Positions 82 through 7,950 of a stretch of DNA of 9,104 nt are shown here, piece by piece. Location of the stretch: IMG/VR virus record IMGVR_UViG_2703718773_000014; one strand, written 5' to 3'. The stretch is from a virus (taxonomy: Duplodnaviria > Heunggongvirae > Uroviricota > Caudoviricetes). Both the position numbers and the translations under genes were made by a program. The notes under the pieces are model-generated. The model worked only from the letters and a program-made list of their open reading frames with translations. It was not told the origin of the DNA and made no database searches. Each line of letters opens with the position of its first letter. Position 1 is the first letter of the stretch.

Positions 82-1434
<1,353 letters not shown>

Positions 1435-1786: not shown

Positions 1787-2110
1787 ATGGATGCACAAAC
1801 ACGCCGCCGCGAACGTCGCGCAGAGAAACAGGCTCAATGGAAAGCAGCAAATCCCCTGTTGGTTGGGGTAAGCGCTAAACCAGTTAACCGCCCTATTCTC
1901 TCGCTGAATCGCAAACCGAAATCACGAGTAGAAAGCGCACTGAATCCGATAGACCTTACGGTGCTGGCTGAATACCACGAACAGATTGAAAGCAACCTGC
2001 AACGTATTGAGCGCAAGAATCATCGAGTTTGGTATAGCAAGCCAGGTGAGTTCGGTATAACTTGTCAAGGAAGACAAAAGGTTAAAGGGGAATCCATTCC
2101 ATTGGCATGA
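1787..2110 (+). CDS. N: Antitermination protein N (107 aa)
   Basis: MDAQTRRRERRAEKQAQWKAANPLL... carries the arginine-rich motif and matches lambda N. AGGAGA RBS lies upstream. The track ORF start at 1655 is an upstream extension through nutL and is rejected. Confidence 0.92.
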   Translation: MDAQTRRRERRAEKQAQWKAANPLLVGVSAKPVNRPILSLNRKPKSRVESALNPIDLTVLAEYHEQIESNLQRIERKNHRVWYSKPGEFGITCQGRQKVKGESIPLA

Positions 2111-2118
2111 GGTACGTA

Positions 2119-2988
2119 ATGAAGAAGATTGATTACAAGTCCATACCAAAACCAATAGACTCAGCATCAGAGCGAAAAAAACACAAAAAAGAGGCTGAAA
2201 AATTAGCAAATTATATCAGTTTTATTAGAAACAATGCTCACGGCGATGGCGACAAGAAGTTGCTTTCAGATGCTCGGACCCAAGCGTTCGGTATACTTCG
2301 TAAGCAGATGCAATATCGTCTTCATCCTGGCTACATAATTGAAATTCGCCCTACTGAAAGACAATTGTTCTTATTAAACTCTGTCTTTGACTTTGTAAAC
2401 GTAGTTGGAGATCTTATCGACAGGTCTGTAGATAAGGATCCTGATACAAATAGTTTTCTTCTAACAAATAAAGAATACTTATATGGTAAATTCGGTATAA
2501 ACGGATGGCAAAAATATGTACGCTTCTTACGTGCATTCGTTGATGCGTATAAAAATTCCGACATGATTTATACATATTTGCCTGGTGGTGATAATTGTAC
2601 GCTTTCGGCAGACAATAGAATATTCATACCTGTACTTGGTCTTGGGCTGATTAATGCAGTAAATGAAAAAGATGTTATAATTGTTAAGCAGTGGCGAAAA
2701 TATGAGGGATATAGATATCTGCCATGCTTTGATATATTAAAAATACAGAATAAATTCTATGTAAAAATTAAATATAAAGAAGATATTTTCTTCCTCAGAA
2801 AAAACATAGATCTTTTACAAGAACTTTCTGGTACAATAGATGTCATCTTAGGTTCTAGGTTTATAAAAGAACTGAAAGAAAGCAGGTCTTTCTCTCGTGT
2901 AGAGATAAGCGAGTCAGAGTTATGGGGTATATCAAATAATCCTGTAAACCACGCTCACCAACGAAACCCAAACAAAAAGTGGTCATAA
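2119..2988 (+). CDS. Hypothetical protein (~289 aa; alternative start 2107 gives 293 aa), AT-rich, unknown function
   Basis: Long uninterrupted ORF. The ATG at 2107 overlaps the N stop (ATGA); the ATG at 2119 is preceded by GAGGT with a 5-nt spacer. Composition is visibly more AT-rich than the flanking genes. No motif I can recognise (no Walker A, no TM segments). Confidence 0.6.
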   Translation: MKKIDYKSIPKPIDSASERKKHKKEAEKLANYISFIRNNAHGDGDKKLLSDARTQAFGILRKQMQYRLHPGYIIEIRPTERQLFLLNSVFDFVNVVGDLIDRSVDKDPDTNSFLLTNKEYLYGKFGINGWQKYVRFLRAFVDAYKNSDMIYTYLPGGDNCTLSADNRIFIPVLGLGLINAVNEKDVIIVKQWRKYEGYRYLPCFDILKIQNKFYVKIKYKEDIFFLRKNIDLLQELSGTIDVILGSRFIKELKESRSFSRVEISESELWGISNNPVNHAHQRNPNKKWS

Positions 2989-3545: not shown

Positions 3546-3617
3546 GCGCGGCGTTACCGCATACCAATTACGCTTCACTCGAGGCGTTTTTCGTTATGTA
3601 TAAATAAGGAGCACACC

Positions 3618-3782
3618 ATGCAATATGCCATTGCAGGGTGGCCTGTTGCTGGCTGCCCTTCCGAATCTTTACTTGAACGAATCACCCGTAAATTACGTGA
3701 CGGATGGAAACGCCTTATCGACATACTTAATCAGCCAGGAGTCCCAAAAAATGGATCAAACAATTATGGCTATCCAGACTAA
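3618..3782 (+). CDS. cIII: CIII (54 aa, inhibitor of FtsH-mediated CII degradation)
   Basis: ATG at 3618 after AAGGAG. Translation MQYAIAGWPVAGCPSESLLERITRKLRDGWKRLIDILNQPG... matches lambda CIII. It is below the ORF-track length cutoff. Confidence 0.9.
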   Translation: MQYAIAGWPVAGCPSESLLERITRKLRDGWKRLIDILNQPGVPKNGSNNYGYPD

Positions 3783-6466: not shown

Positions 6467-6688
6467 ATGGCAGACATCATTGATTCAGCATCAGAAATTG
6501 AAGAATTACAGCGCAACACAGCAATAAAAATGCGCCGCCTGAACCACCAGGCTATATCTGCCACTCATTGTTGTGAGTGTGGCGATCCCATAGATGAGCG
6601 AAGACGCCTGGCCGTTCAGGGTTGTCGGACTTGTGCAAGTTGCCAGGAGGATCTGGAACTTATCAGTAAACAGAGAGGTTCGAAGTGA
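6467..6688 (+). CDS. orf73: TraR/DksA-family C4 zinc-finger protein (lambda orf73-like, 73 aa)
   Basis: CxxC-N17-CxxC motif (CCECGDPIDERRRLAVQGCRTCASCQ), characteristic of the DksA/TraR zinc finger. The 73-aa size matches lambda orf73. Confidence 0.8.
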   Translation: MADIIDSASEIEELQRNTAIKMRRLNHQAISATHCCECGDPIDERRRLAVQGCRTCASCQEDLELISKQRGSK

Positions 6689-6840
6689 GCGAAATTAACT
6701 AGAAGCCAAAGATAAAATCATCGCTGAGCAGGAGAAAATCGCTAACGGAGAAAAGACAGTAAGTCAGTATATGAAAACCGCATGATATCATCAGATAAAA
6801 ATCGATCGTAAAGCGAAATATTAATACCAGAATAAACGAG

Positions 6841-6864
6841 TCGAGGTAAATTATATTACCTCGA
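6841..6864. terminator. Hairpin (9-bp stem TCGAGGTAA / TTACCTCGA, 6-nt loop) between convergent genes; possible bidirectional terminator
   Basis: Perfect inverted repeat in the AT-rich spacer between the 3' ends of orf73 (+) and the 6899-7501 gene (-). The flanking A/T runs are only moderately U-rich on either strand. Confidence 0.4.
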
Positions 6865-6898
6865 TAAATTAACTAAAACTTGCCCGCTATATACTATC

Positions 6899-7501
6899 TC
6901 ATTCAGTATCATCACGCGCGGTCTGTGCATATGTTACTACCGCACCTAATGTATTAATTTTCTTTTCAACATAGATAATATTATCGTACTCATAATTGCC
7001 ATACGGATAGCAAATGCGAATATTCTCATGTAGATCGGGGTCATCCACCTCAGCTCCAGAACAACTTTTTGAACTACCGGAAGTATACCGATACGGTGCA
7101 ACATAAGACGATGTCTCTCCAGGCAAAAAATAAGTTAGTGTTGTAAGGGGTATAATCAGAAAAAATCCAGCAAATATGCACATCCCTGCATAAACCTTAA
7201 GGTATGCTGACAGACTCTTCCAGCCGCTTTGTTTTACTATCCCCTTCTTAACCCAAAACAGAGATAACAGAAAAGCTATTCCCATGCTAAACAGAATGTA
7301 ATAGTGGGATATACTCTGATTAAGAAACGTGACCCTGTAAATATCTGCCCGCCACCAGAAGAAAAGGAAAATAAAGATCAGGCCTGAAACTGTCATGCAA
7401 ATCAAATAAGGATACGAATCTTTTTTCATGTTTAGCGTCCATAAAATTTTTCCTGCCCCGGACAAATTTACCATCCATTTTTTGCGCAGAAAATAGCTCA
7501 T
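6899..7501 (-). CDS. Hypothetical integral membrane protein (up to 200 aa; alternative starts at 7474 and 7429), AT-rich, reverse-oriented
   Basis: Three hydrophobic segments (LICMTVSGLIFIFLFFWW; YYILFSMGIAFLLSLFWV; VYAGMCIFAGFFLIIPLTTLTYFL) followed by a ~75-aa Cys-containing hydrophilic C-terminal domain. It is on the strand opposite the pL operon and visibly AT-rich. No candidate start has a strong RBS. Confidence 0.6.
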   Translation of the reverse strand: MSYFLRKKWMVNLSGAGKILWTLNMKKDSYPYLICMTVSGLIFIFLFFWWRADIYRVTFLNQSISHYYILFSMGIAFLLSLFWVKKGIVKQSGWKSLSAYLKVYAGMCIFAGFFLIIPLTTLTYFLPGETSSYVAPYRYTSGSSKSCSGAEVDDPDLHENIRICYPYGNYEYDNIIYVEKKINTLGAVVTYAQTARDDTE

Positions 7502-7743
7502 TACTTACTGCACAATAATACACAAAATTGCGTAAATTTTTTGCATGGATTTTAGCTCTTTCAGCCGACGTTTAAGGGGTAAATAGCATTTCCTAAAAGC
7601 AACTGCACCAACCCAACAGAATGAGCTACCGCTTACGTTGAGAGCAAAAAAGTGTATAGCAGCAATGAACAGCATCCTCGCACTGACGAGGATTTCTTTT
7701 ATCTGAACTCGCTACGGCGGGTTTTGTTTTATGGAGATGATAA

Positions 7744-7911
7744 ATGCACTTCCGAGTCACAGGTGAATGGAATGGAGAACCATTCAACAGAGTTATCGAA
7801 GCAGAGAACATCAATGACTGCTATGACCACTGGATGATATGGGCGCAGATAGCACATGCAGACATAACCAATATTCGAATTGAAGAACTGAAAGAACACC
7901 AAGCCGCCTGA
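7744..7911 (+). CDS. orf55: Orf55-like small protein (55 aa) upstream of xis
   Basis: ATG at 7744 preceded by GGAG. Translation MHFRVTGEWNGEPFNRVIEAENINDCYDHWMIWAQIAHADITNIRIEELKEHQAA. It is below the ORF-track cutoff; size and position match lambda orf55. Confidence 0.6.
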   Translation: MHFRVTGEWNGEPFNRVIEAENINDCYDHWMIWAQIAHADITNIRIEELKEHQAA

Positions 7912-7926
7912 TGGCGGCTTTTTCTT
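7903..7926 (+). terminator. Rho-independent terminator-like hairpin (GCCGCC-TGAT-GGCGGC followed by TTTTTCTT)
   Basis: Perfect 6-bp GC stem with a 4-nt loop and an immediate T-run, overlapping the orf55 stop codon. Confidence 0.65.
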
Positions 7927-7950
7927 GCGTGTAATTGCGGAGACTTTGCG

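What the first reader, a model, noticed from the sequence alone, without database searches (positions are those of the whole stretch)
6899..7501. Reverse-oriented AT-rich membrane protein gene replacing the lambda ea22/ea8.5 interval
Everything from pL to int is on the + strand except this one ORF, which is minus-strand, AT-rich, and bracketed by a convergent hairpin (6841-6864) and a ~240 bp divergent intergenic region. These are the hallmarks of an independently transcribed moron. The product has three predicted transmembrane helices and a ~75-aa Cys-containing C-terminal domain. Small prophage membrane proteins of this kind are often superinfection-exclusion or abortive-infection effectors, but that is inference, not something the sequence proves.
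Basis: partly seen in the sequence, partly recalled or inferred. Interest (0 to 1): 0.68.

Follow-up and report, generated by a model that had tools for sequence, protein, structure and literature searches.

The report
Prophage membrane-protein cassette borrowed from P2
The reverse-oriented gene in this phage-434-type prophage is real: it encodes a small inner-membrane protein of unknown function and arrived as a self-contained cassette from the anti-phage "hotspot" of P2-like phages, so it is a good but untested candidate for blocking infection by other phages.

Summary
A minus-strand, moderately AT-rich ORF sits in an otherwise plus-strand pL operon of a phage 434-type prophage. It has a 3' hairpin, three hydrophobic helices and a Cys-containing C-terminal domain. 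One correction: the true start is ATG 7429 (176 aa), not ATG 7501 (200 aa). The annotated upstream ORF56 is spurious.

The protein is under strong purifying selection (dN/dS about 0.1). It models confidently as three TM helices plus a five-stranded OB-like beta-barrel, predicted to be periplasmic, with two invariant cysteines. The family is small and enterobacterial. It has no Pfam, NCBIfam, PADLOC, PDB or viral-structure relative and is unrelated to P22 SieA.

The whole 946-bp module (6702-7647) derives from the cos-proximal gpQ-gpA slot of P2-like phages, a validated defence hotspot. It still carries decayed relics of both P2-type cos flanks and an Ea22 fragment. The "CII-binding site" in the 434 record is two of those relic cos-flank repeats. 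The cassette's own conserved element is an extended -10-like motif (TGnTAAATT).

Function is unproven. Most likely it is a lysogen-expressed, envelope-level superinfection-exclusion protein. This is an ordinary kind of element, an uncharacterised family, with a neat evolutionary history.

The parts
6899..7429 (-). Coding sequence of the membrane protein: 176 aa plus the TGA stop at 6899-6901. Start codon is ATG 7429-7427, preceded by a weak SD (GGA 7440-7438).
   Evidence: ORF. Conserved N-terminus MKKxSYPxL in all diverged homologs. dN/dS 0.07-0.15. AlphaFold pLDDT 86 for the full protein and 91 for the C-domain.
7430..7501 (-). 5' leader wrongly included in the 200-aa ORF. Includes ATG 7501, ATG 7474 and the TTG 7465 start used in the GenBank 434 record.
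   Evidence: Upstream starts are not conserved. There is an in-frame TAA in the E. coli and Salmonella P2-like copies. A 1-nt poly-A indel in the P0022-type contigs shifts the frame.
7465..7493 (-). Predicted promoter of the cassette: -35-like TTTTCT (7493-7488), 17-bp spacer, extended -10 with TG (7473-7472) then TAAATT (7470-7465). Predicted transcript start near 7458.
   Evidence: Core at -66..-35 is 30/32 identical between 434 and the E. coli P2-like copy, and 24/32 with Salmonella, while synonymous sites have pS 0.60-0.72. TGnTAAnTT persists in Salmonella, Enterobacter and Cedecea copies. It is below the threshold of the consensus scanner. No experimental mapping exists.
7509..7535 (-). 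Three decayed, 10-bp-phased repeats (TTACGCA / TTGTGTA / TTGTGCA). They are a relic of the P2-type cos flank. Repeats 2+3 (7512-7525) are the 'CII binding site' in the GenBank 434 annotation.
   Evidence: The exact TTGTGCA x3 array occurs in at least 120 viral contigs. 106 of 120 have a P2-type cohesive end 118-120 nt upstream, and 0 of 115 have this gene family downstream. Conservation stops at the third repeat. P2 itself has ATGCA repeats at the same place. The TTGY-N6-TTGY pattern is not enriched in the window.
7562..7622 (-). Relic of the portal-gene (Q) side flank of a P2-type cos site. The cohesive-end core (about 85 nt) is deleted after GGCTG.
   Evidence: Window 7576-7590 matches 36 P2-like contigs at a fixed position next to the cohesive end. 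Direct comparison with L021 agrees.
6841..6864 (-). 3' hairpin (9-bp stem, 6-nt loop) followed by a weak U-tract. Probable, modest intrinsic terminator of the cassette.
   Evidence: -12.9 kcal/mol, z -2.8. The equivalent hairpin in the P2-like copy is weaker (-8 kcal/mol, z -0.7), so conservation is partial.
6685..6786 (+). Ea22 remnant: start codons GTG-S-E-I-N then a stop, followed by a coiled-coil fragment LEAKDKIIAEQEKIANGEK...
   Evidence: Translation. Homologous to the truncated ead/Ea22-like pseudogene that lies convergent to the gene in E. coli P2-like prophages.
6702..7647 (.). The whole 434-type-specific module (about 946 bp), bounded by lambda-type homology on the left and shared lambdoid sequence on the right.
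   Evidence: Present at >=80% coverage in 905 of 5,426 complete E. coli genomes.
7505..7675 (-). ORF56, annotated 'putative membrane protein' in the 434 record. Judged spurious.
   Evidence: It overlies the cos-flank relics and crosses the module boundary at 7648. It has no counterpart in P2-like copies, where this stretch is cos, and no family hits.
7674..7724 (+). Two plus-strand terminator-like hairpins (7674-7693, which is tL4 of GenBank M60848, and 7705-7724). They lie just outside the module and act on pL-direction transcripts.
   Evidence: -20.9 kcal/mol, z -4.2.

Best explanation
The feature is an autonomous accessory cassette (a 'moron'). It encodes a 176-aa inner-membrane protein.

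Predicted topology:
- N-terminus in the cytoplasm.
- Three TM helices.
- A short conserved periplasmic loop 1.
- A 75-aa C-terminal five-stranded OB-like beta-barrel in the periplasm, probably stabilised by a disulfide between two invariant cysteines (C123 and C140 of the 176-aa protein).

Origin: the cassette arose in the cos-proximal gpQ-gpA accessory slot of P2-like phages. It was copied into a lambdoid phage together with both cos flanks and an adjacent Ea22 fragment. The crossover probably used Ea22 homology on one side. The cos core was later lost.

Expression (inferred): the gene is transcribed from its own weak extended -10 sigma-70 promoter. Expression should occur in the lysogen, when pL is repressed and convergent antisense transcription is absent.

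Function (inferred, not shown): the protein most likely acts at the cell envelope to block superinfecting phages. It would interfere with DNA transfer across the periplasm and inner membrane, probably by engaging a conserved host component rather than a fast-evolving phage protein. The reason for that last point is that the periplasmic domain is the most conserved part of the protein.

My confidence by step:
- Real gene with corrected start: about 0.95.
- Topology and fold: about 0.8.
- P2-hotspot origin: about 0.85.
- Own promoter, lysogen expression: about 0.6.
- Exclusion function: about 0.4.
For: Gene reality and start:
- establish the ORF and its start.
- dN/dS is 0.07-0.15, and the C-domain is more constrained than the TM part.

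Architecture:
- Three KD-positive segments. Charge bias: N-terminus +, loop 2 with 5 K and 0 acidic residues, C-domain net -6.
- AlphaFold pLDDT 86 and 91.
- The two Cys are invariant, even in the most distant relatives.

Mobility as a unit:
- DNA homology between 434 and the P2-like copy spans window 7566-6792 plus patches on both sides.

P2 hotspot location:
- Homologs in E. coli, Salmonella (two subtypes), E. hormaechei and K. michiganensis all sit there.
- That slot holds old/tin in P2 and is an experimentally validated defence hotspot (PMC9122126).
- The P2-like variant WP_000711113 is listed there as 'hypothetical'.

Promoter:
- The leader core is conserved well above neutral expectation.
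- P2's mapped old-tin transcript start lies at a comparable position downstream of the repeats.

Precedent:
- P22 SieA is a 162/164-aa inner-membrane protein with three predicted TM segments. It blocks DNA injection (PMC10883804).
- Lambda and 434 need the inner-membrane ManYZ proteins for DNA entry, and a prophage protein (DicB) blocks that step (PMC6832061).
Against: - There is no experimental phenotype. No paper was found on this protein.
- There is no homology to any known exclusion or defence family: PHROG hit of unknown function only, PADLOC none, SieA hhalign probability 0.2%.
- Homologs at 35-56% identity are chromosomal or on Pantoea megaplasmids, away from prophages. This fits a host-physiology role equally well.
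- Many E. coli P2-like copies are frameshifted.
- Other genes in the same slot are also unannotated, so guilt by association is weak.
- The promoter is below the consensus-scan threshold and is unmapped.
- Topology and disulfide are predictions.
Confidence: 0.42

Rival explanations
1. Lysogenic-conversion or host-physiology factor unrelated to phage defence. The periplasmic domain would bind or modulate a host envelope component such as a transporter, a PTS permease, peptidoglycan or a stress sensor. Alternatively the protein is an orphan immunity protein against a periplasm-acting bacteriocin, T6SS or CDI toxin. Either way it would benefit the lysogen directly.
For: - Chromosomal or megaplasmid homologs lie outside prophages in Enterobacter, Klebsiella, Cedecea, Citrobacter, Pseudescherichia, Serratia and Pantoea.
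- The periplasmic domain is strongly conserved, with no sign of arms-race diversification.
- Two chromosomal copies lie next to glucose-family PTS permeases.
Against: - No toxin, bacteriocin or consistent partner gene lies next to any copy.
- PTS adjacency is seen in only 2 of about 9 independent contexts.
- There is no match to colicin-immunity or any other Pfam family.
- Phage-borne copies sit specifically in a slot dominated by anti-phage cargo (PMC9122126).
Confidence: 0.27
2. Abortive-infection membrane effector. The protein sits inertly in the inner membrane and, on sensing infection, permeabilises or depolarises the membrane and kills the cell before phage release.
For: - It is a small multi-TM protein in a defence hotspot.
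- TM proteins in known systems are often suicide effectors (statement in PMC9122126).
- It is a single-gene cassette.
Against: - No sensor partner or cytoplasmic domain is present. Cytoplasmic parts are only about 7 aa plus an 18-aa loop.
- The conserved, probably disulfide-bonded domain faces the periplasm. That suits an entry block better than intracellular sensing.
- There is no PADLOC match.
Confidence: 0.13
3. CII-activated establishment gene. The TTGT-N6-TTGT box at 7512-7525, marked as a CII site in the GenBank 434 record, would make the gene part of the lysogeny-establishment regulon, like pI, pRE and paQ.
For: - The pattern is present immediately upstream, on the gene's strand.
- The hexamer 13 nt downstream (AGCTAT) resembles the poor -10 that I recall for lambda pRE. 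This is from memory, not tested.
Against: - The pattern is not enriched: 4 in the window against 2.3 expected, and 38 of 200 shuffles reach 4.
- It is TTGT-type, whereas the genuine pI site in the window is TTGC-type.
- By descent it is two of three P2-type cos-flank repeats. These are conserved in at least 120 P2-like contigs regardless of cargo, and P2-like phages have no lambda CII.
- The repeats are decaying in 434.
Confidence: 0.08
4. Not a functional gene: a chance ORF or a decaying remnant in AT-rich DNA.
For: - Many copies in E. coli P2-like prophages are frameshifted or truncated.
- No family annotation exists anywhere.
Against: - dN/dS is about 0.1 across pairs with saturated synonymous sites.
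- 33 invariant columns across 42-78% identical homologs.
- Confident fold prediction.
- Intact in the sampled lambdoid copies among 905 E. coli genomes.
Confidence: 0.02

Closest known systems
P22 SieA (superinfection exclusion protein A)
   Same: It is encoded by a prophage with its own promoter, on the opposite strand to its neighbours. It is about 163 aa, an inner-membrane protein with three predicted TM segments, and a single gene sufficient for its effect, which is to block DNA injection (PMC10883804).
   Different: There is no detectable sequence relationship (hhalign probability 0.2%). SieA's conserved motif FxRYPxEAxxFNK is absent. SieA's conserved C-terminal motif is predicted to be cytoplasmic, whereas here the C-domain is predicted periplasmic with two invariant Cys.
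P2 old/tin and other cargo of the P2 cos-proximal (gpQ-gpA) defence hotspot
   Same: Homologs occupy exactly this slot, immediately after the cos-flank repeats and in the same orientation as old. They have a promoter at a comparable distance. The slot is a validated reservoir of anti-phage genes (PMC9122126).
   Different: Old is an ATPase/nuclease and Tin a cytoplasmic protein. This is a small membrane protein with no similarity to them. Its anti-phage activity has not been tested.
HK97 gp15 / DicB-type blocks of inner-membrane DNA entry
   Same: These are prophage-encoded small proteins that stop phage DNA crossing the inner membrane by acting on or near PTS permeases. DicB acts on ManYZ for lambda and 434 (PMC6832061). 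HK97 gp15 with PtsG is from my memory of Cumby et al. 2012/2015.
   Different: There is no sequence similarity: the only PHROG hit is an unknown-function family. DicB is cytoplasmic. Any link of this family to PTS permeases rests on two gene-neighbourhood coincidences.
Lambdoid 'morons' (e.g. lambda bor/lom, HK97 gp15)
   Same: It is an insertion between conserved backbone genes, with lower GC, its own promoter-like element and terminator hairpin, and presence/absence polymorphism among close relatives.
   Different: The donor can be identified here (a P2-like phage), because backbone relics (cos flanks) came along. That is unusual.
DUF1093 / YxeA-like membrane-anchored small beta-barrels (PDB 3npp, 2k5q)

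Membership tests
Moron (autonomous accessory cassette in a phage genome) | Present/absent between otherwise collinear, closely related phages | tested here: met
   Lambda-type phages share sequence up to about 6701 and from about 7648 but lack 6702-7647. Only 434, 2B8 and mEp332 carry it among 50,697 phage records.
Moron (autonomous accessory cassette in a phage genome) | Own promoter and terminator; transcribed independently of the flanking operon | tested here: inconclusive
   Supporting: opposite strand, a conserved extended -10-like core (30/32 against pS 0.60), and a 3' hairpin. Against: the promoter is below the consensus-scan threshold, the hairpin is only partly conserved, and no transcript data exist.
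Moron (autonomous accessory cassette in a phage genome) | Base composition different from the surrounding genome | tested here: met
   GC 0.35-0.40 against 0.45-0.53.
P2-like cos-proximal defence-hotspot cargo | Located between portal gene Q/cos and replication gene A of P2-like phages | tested here: met
   Met for homologs at 56-78% identity in five host species. The 434 copy retains relics of both cos flanks.
P2-like cos-proximal defence-hotspot cargo | Confers resistance to phage infection | not testable with these tools
   Needs plaque assays. WP_000711113 is listed as 'hypothetical' in Table S5A of PMC9122126. It does not occur in that paper's other held supplementary files, including the table of evaluated systems.
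P22 SieA family | Sequence homology to SieA types A/B/C, including the FxRYPxEAxxFNK motif | tested here: not met
   hhalign probability 0.2%, E = 0.28. The motif is absent from the sequence.
P22 SieA family | Inner-membrane protein of about 160 aa with three TM segments | tested here: met
   Met by prediction only: 176 aa, three KD-positive segments, AlphaFold helices 5-29, 38-61 and 70-101.
Known anti-phage defence systems (PADLOC-DB 2.0) | Significant match to a model of a known or candidate defence protein | tested here: not met
   0 families at E <= 1.
Lambda CII-dependent promoter | TTGC-N6-TTGC flanking the -35 region, conserved with the regulated gene | tested here: not met
   Only a TTGT-N6-TTGT version is present and it is not enriched. 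The repeats co-vary with P2-type cos, not with the gene: 106 of 120 next to cos and 0 of 115 next to this family.
Curated protein families (Pfam-A, NCBIfam, PHROGs with function) | Match above the curated threshold | tested here: not met
   Pfam: only DUF6057 at 10.6-13 bits against a 29.8 cutoff. NCBIfam: none. PHROG 1416 (unknown function) matches aa 113-200 of the 200-aa ORF.

The most novel reading that the evidence does not exclude
The family is a new class of envelope-level superinfection-exclusion proteins. Its conserved periplasmic OB-like domain would lock or mask a conserved host inner-membrane component used for phage DNA entry, for example a PTS permease such as ManYZ or PtsG. This would explain three things: why the same cassette is useful to unrelated temperate phages (P2-like myoviruses and lambdoid siphoviruses), why it has been domesticated on chromosomes, and why its periplasmic domain does not diversify.
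Probability: 0.3. Interest if true: 0.6.

Novelty: new member of a known kind. Interest (0 to 1): 0.38.

Why it matters
- The cassette is in about 17% of complete E. coli genomes (905 of 5,426), including O157:H7 strains. It is also in the classic phage 434, yet nothing is known about its product.
- If it is an exclusion protein, it adds a new, structurally distinct family to the small set of inner-membrane DNA-entry blockers. It would also be a tractable one, because 434, mEp332 and K-12 genetics are available.
- The analysis corrects three annotations in public records: the start codon, the spurious ORF56 and the supposed CII site.
- It documents, with sequence relics, a direct transfer of defence-hotspot cargo from a P2-like phage into a lambdoid phage. 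This is a concrete example of defence genes shuttling between unrelated temperate phages.
- It flags a conserved triple TTGTGCA repeat about 119 nt from the cohesive end as a backbone element of a large group of P2-like phages.

Tried and rejected
Homology and structure searches that gave nothing useful:
- Pfam, NCBIfam and PADLOC on the protein, on 18 family members and on ORF56: nothing significant.
- A PDB sequence profile search: nothing.
- Profile comparison with P22 SieA: unrelated.
- Deep HMM search of 1.84 billion representatives: only 61 hits, all the same small family, apart from a 3,074-aa repeat lipoprotein (P0116). I judged that weak multi-repeat match to be Cys/Gly-pattern noise.

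Hypotheses tested and dropped:
- The CII-site idea from the GenBank annotation was tested and rejected in favour of a cos-flank relic.
- The PTS-neighbour lead was tested across all chromosomal loci I could fetch and is not a pattern.
- Slot neighbours in Salmonella, Klebsiella and Enterobacter P2-like prophages were scanned for known defence genes: none found.

Other dead ends:
- Rfam on the window shows no RNA family in the module.
- Literature searches for mEp332, for the 434 genome paper and for the WP accessions found no functional data.
- The 112-aa protein could not be looked up by contig. RefSeq annotation shows instead that those copies are frameshifted.
Full report
WHAT THE WINDOW IS

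The 6700-7800 stretch is 100% identical to Escherichia phage 434 (OL657226/OL657227). It is 98.8-99.9% identical to phages 2B8 and mEp332. The window runs from the 434 immunity region (cro, cI) along the pL operon to int, all on the plus strand. To the right of the finding the gene order is ORF55-xis-int. That matches mEp332 and many E. coli prophages. The sequenced 434 instead has an extra ORF114 there.

CHECK OF THE OBSERVATION

The ORF at 6899..7501 (minus strand, 200 aa) exists.
- GC is 0.35-0.40 over 6750-7650, against 0.45-0.53 around it.
- A 9-bp-stem hairpin lies at 6841-6864. On the gene's strand it folds at -12.9 kcal/mol (z = -2.8) and is followed by a weak U-tract.
- Three 19-residue windows exceed the Kyte-Doolittle 1.6 threshold, and a 75-aa C-terminal domain contains two Cys.
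- Lambda-type phages share sequence up to window position ~6701, just inside the start of ea22. Other lambdoid phages share sequence again from ~7648.

A ~946-bp module therefore occupies the ea22/ea8.5 interval. The description is correct except for the start codon.

START CODON AND ORF56

Homologs at 42-78% identity are 169-180 aa long and all begin MKKxSYPxL. That motif aligns with M25 of the 200-aa ORF.
- In the E. coli and Salmonella P2-like copies, the frame upstream of this ATG hits TAA.
- In other E. coli copies (P0022), a 1-nt change in a poly-A run shifts the upstream frame without harm to the rest.
- The gene is therefore 6899..7429 (176 aa). ATG 7501 and the TTG 7465 used in the GenBank 434 record are not supported.
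- ORF56 (7505-7675), annotated 'putative membrane protein', lies over non-coding relics described below and crosses the module boundary. It is not a gene.

THE PROTEIN

Nei-Gojobori dN/dS is 0.07-0.15 for pairs whose synonymous sites are near saturation. The C-domain is more constrained than the TM part.

AlphaFold with an 18-sequence alignment gives pLDDT 86 and pTM 0.70.
- Helices: 5-29, 38-61 and 70-101.
- A short strand at 34-36 in loop 1.
- Five strands between 105 and 171.
- The C-domain alone gives pLDDT 91.

Charge distribution predicts N-in/C-out. The N-terminus is MKKD, loop 2 has five Lys and no acidic residue, and the C-domain has net charge -6. The two Cys (C123 and C140 of the 176-aa form) are invariant even in the most remote relatives, with C-x16-17-C spacing. 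This fits a periplasmic disulfide across the beta2-beta3 hairpin. That last point is an inference, because I could not read the model coordinates.

FAMILY SEARCHES
- No Pfam, NCBIfam or PADLOC match.
- PHROG 1416 (unknown function, 90 positions) matches only aa 113-200. It may have been built from truncated gene calls like the 112-aa forms. I could not inspect its members.
- An exhaustive profile search of 1.84 billion representatives found only 61 proteins.
- No PDB sequence relative.
- No Foldseek hit in BFVD or PDB at E <= 0.001.
- P22 SieA has the same size and three-TM inner-membrane architecture (PMC10883804) but is unrelated (hhalign probability 0.2%).

WHERE THE FAMILY LIVES
- The lambdoid version is a tight cluster (96-100% identity). 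It is in only three sequenced phages but in 905 of 5,426 complete E. coli genomes.
- Every more diverged phage-borne copy sits in P2-like prophages between the portal gene Q and the replication gene A. This holds for E. coli 78%, Salmonella 70% and 58%, E. hormaechei 57% and K. michiganensis 56%.
- That slot holds old and tin in P2. Rousset et al. showed it to be a hotspot of anti-phage systems next to cos (PMC9122126). Their Table S5A lists the E. coli P2-like variant (WP_000711113) as 'hypothetical'.
- Copies at 35-56% identity are chromosomal in Enterobacter, Klebsiella, Cedecea, Citrobacter, Pseudescherichia and Serratia. They are on Pantoea megaplasmids too. No recurrent neighbour was found.
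- Many E. coli P2-like copies are frameshifted.

THE MODULE CAME FROM A P2-LIKE PHAGE

DNA homology between 434 and an E. coli P2-like prophage (L021) runs from window 7566 to 6792 at 76% identity. That covers 137 bp upstream of the ATG and 107 bp past the stop. Further patches lie on both sides.

Upstream of the gene, the P2-like copies have three perfectly phased TTGTGCA repeats at -106, -96 and -86. These are conserved even where the protein is only 57% identical. In 434 they are decayed to TTACGCA, TTGTGTA and TTGTGCA at 7535-7509.

The exact triple repeat occurs in at least 120 IMG/VR contigs.
- In 106 of them, a P2-type cohesive end lies 118-120 nt upstream.
- None of 115 has this gene family downstream.
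- Column conservation collapses immediately after the third repeat.
- P2 itself has ATGCA repeats at the equivalent place, between cosR and the mapped old-tin transcript start.

The repeats are therefore part of the P2-type cos flank, not of the cargo.

Window 7576-7590 also matches 36 P2-like contigs at a fixed position on the portal side of the cohesive end. In 434 the ~85-nt core between the two flanks is missing.

On the other side of the gene, window 6685-6786 is an Ea22 remnant. It is homologous to the truncated ead/Ea22-like pseudogene that lies convergent to the gene in E. coli P2-like prophages. Intact Ead_Ea22 genes are common cargo of that P2 slot.

The simplest history is as follows. 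The gene sat next to cos in a P2-like phage, beside an Ea22-type gene. Recombination through Ea22 homology on one side, and illegitimately beyond cos on the other, moved the block into a lambdoid phage. The cos core was then lost.

THE 'CII SITE' AND THE PROMOTER

The CII-binding consensus marked at 7512-7525 in the 434 record is repeats 2+3 of this relic.
- The pattern is not enriched in the window: 4 found, 2.3 expected, and 38 of 200 shuffles reach 4.
- One of the four is the genuine TTGC-type pI site at 7925-7938.
- I therefore reject it as evidence for CII control, although exaptation cannot be excluded.

What is cargo-specific and conserved is the leader core TTTTCTGCGCAAAAAA-GGATGGTAAATTT.
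- It is 30/32 identical between 434 and L021, while synonymous sites have pS 0.60.
- It contains an extended -10-like TGnTAAATT (hexamer 7470-7465) and a poor -35 (TTTTCT, 7493-7488).
- The TGnTAAnTT element persists in Salmonella, Enterobacter and even the chromosomal Cedecea copy.
- I infer a weak constitutive sigma-70 promoter with a start near 7458.
- Because pL transcription runs antisense through the gene, expression should be favoured in the lysogen. This is an inference.
- No Rfam family lies in the module.

MECHANISM

Shown:
- It is a real, selected gene.
- It is a mobile unit shared by P2-like and lambdoid phages.
- Diverged phage-borne copies sit in a validated defence hotspot.

Predicted:
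- An inner-membrane protein with N-in/C-out topology.
- A periplasmic OB-like barrel that is probably disulfide-bonded.
- Its own promoter.

Inferred: it acts at the envelope against superinfecting phages, most plausibly at DNA transfer across the periplasm and inner membrane.
- The periplasmic domain is the most conserved part, and the same protein serves unrelated phages and chromosomes. It therefore more likely engages a conserved host component than a phage protein.
- Lambda and 434 need ManYZ for DNA entry, and a prophage protein (DicB) can block that step (PMC6832061). That shows the strategy exists.
- The only hints of a PTS link here are two neighbourhood coincidences, which do not generalise.

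Rivals are a host-physiology or immunity role, an abortive-infection effector, and CII-controlled expression. They are scored separately.

VERDICT

- The 'moron' interpretation is well supported, and the donor has now been identified.
- The functional guess is reasonable but untested.
- It is an uncharacterised member of a familiar kind of element. Interest is moderate to low, and rises if the exclusion function and a host target are demonstrated.

Noticed in passing
L005:7895-7921, L021:5895-5921, L025:4892-4918 and at least 120 IMG/VR loci (L030-L149); P2 NC_001895 about 33450-33480: A perfectly phased triple repeat (TTGTGCA-N3, three times) lies 118-120 nt from the cohesive end in a large group of P2-like phages. 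A fourth copy lies closer to cos, and P2 itself has ATGCA repeats at the same place. Conservation ends exactly at the last repeat, where the variable hotspot cargo begins. It is probably a terminase-binding or packaging element. It also marks the hotspot boundary.
   Followed up: partly
window 958-1434 (+): A 158-aa ORF overlaps the 3' end of the 434 cI gene (401-1033). After an internal Met it has a signal-peptide-like segment ([18 protein letters not shown]). Its position fits the 434 Hex protein described as translated from an ORF overlapping the repressor gene (PMC3564112). No Pfam match.
   Followed up: partly
window 2107-2988 (+): A very AT-rich (GC 0.30-0.38) 293-aa ORF lies downstream of the N-like gene. 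It is annotated in the 434 record as 'Nun C-terminal peptide-containing protein' and has no Pfam match. It looks like another foreign insertion, this time co-oriented with pL.
   Followed up: no
window 3605-3663 (+): Rfam Lambda_thermo (cIII thermoregulator) matches at 88.5 bits. This is the expected feature at the cIII start.
   Followed up: no
window 7912-7950 versus L001 5213-5691: The window goes from ORF55 straight to pI/xis, as in mEp332 and E. coli prophages. The sequenced phage 434 records have an extra ~440 bp with ORF114 and a terminator. The window is therefore 434-like but not identical to the deposited 434 genomes in this part.
   Followed up: partly
L152:3333-5510 (Serratia marcescens) and L018:4882-7543 (Klebsiella sp.): Two chromosomal homologs lie next to glucose-family PTS permease genes: directly downstream of ptsG in Serratia, and divergent from an EIIBCA gene in Klebsiella. 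This is intriguing because phage DNA entry uses PTS permeases. It is not seen in the other ~7 chromosomal contexts. The Serratia record is labelled a plasmid but carries mltG-tmk-holB-ptsG, so it is probably a chromosome fragment.
   Followed up: partly
L004:7284-7888, L012:6227-6831, L013:6106-6836: In several Salmonella P2-like prophages, a co-oriented pair of small ORFs (81 or 123 aa, plus 119 aa) sits between cos and this gene. In L004 only two of the TTGTGCA repeats remain, still 10 bp apart. They have no Pfam or PADLOC match. They are not obligate partners, because they are absent in L005, L021 and L025.
   Followed up: partly
L165:394-969, L166:394-969; proteins P0131/P0133 (112 aa): In many E. 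coli P2-like prophages the gene is frameshifted. Gene callers then report a 112-aa product (TM3 plus beta domain from an internal GTG), which is seen on at least 1,000 contigs. Whether this short form is made and active is unknown.
   Followed up: partly
L155 (JARKOR010000073.1, 3,561 bp): A contig assigned to a 'Candidatus Nanosynbacter' MAG carries a 99% identical copy of the E. coli lambdoid gene. This is almost certainly binning contamination.
   Followed up: no
protein P0116 (3,074 aa): A giant repeat lipoprotein gives 11 weak matches to positions 122-158 of the family profile (overall E = 2e-11). The repeats share a C-x-G-x-x-C-like pattern. I judged this to be pattern similarity, not homology.
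   Followed up: partly
L015:3281-6623 (-): In K. michiganensis P2-like prophages the slot also holds a 790-aa AAA_16-type ATPase and a 279-aa protein, both with no PADLOC match. This may be an undescribed two-gene defence candidate.
   Followed up: no
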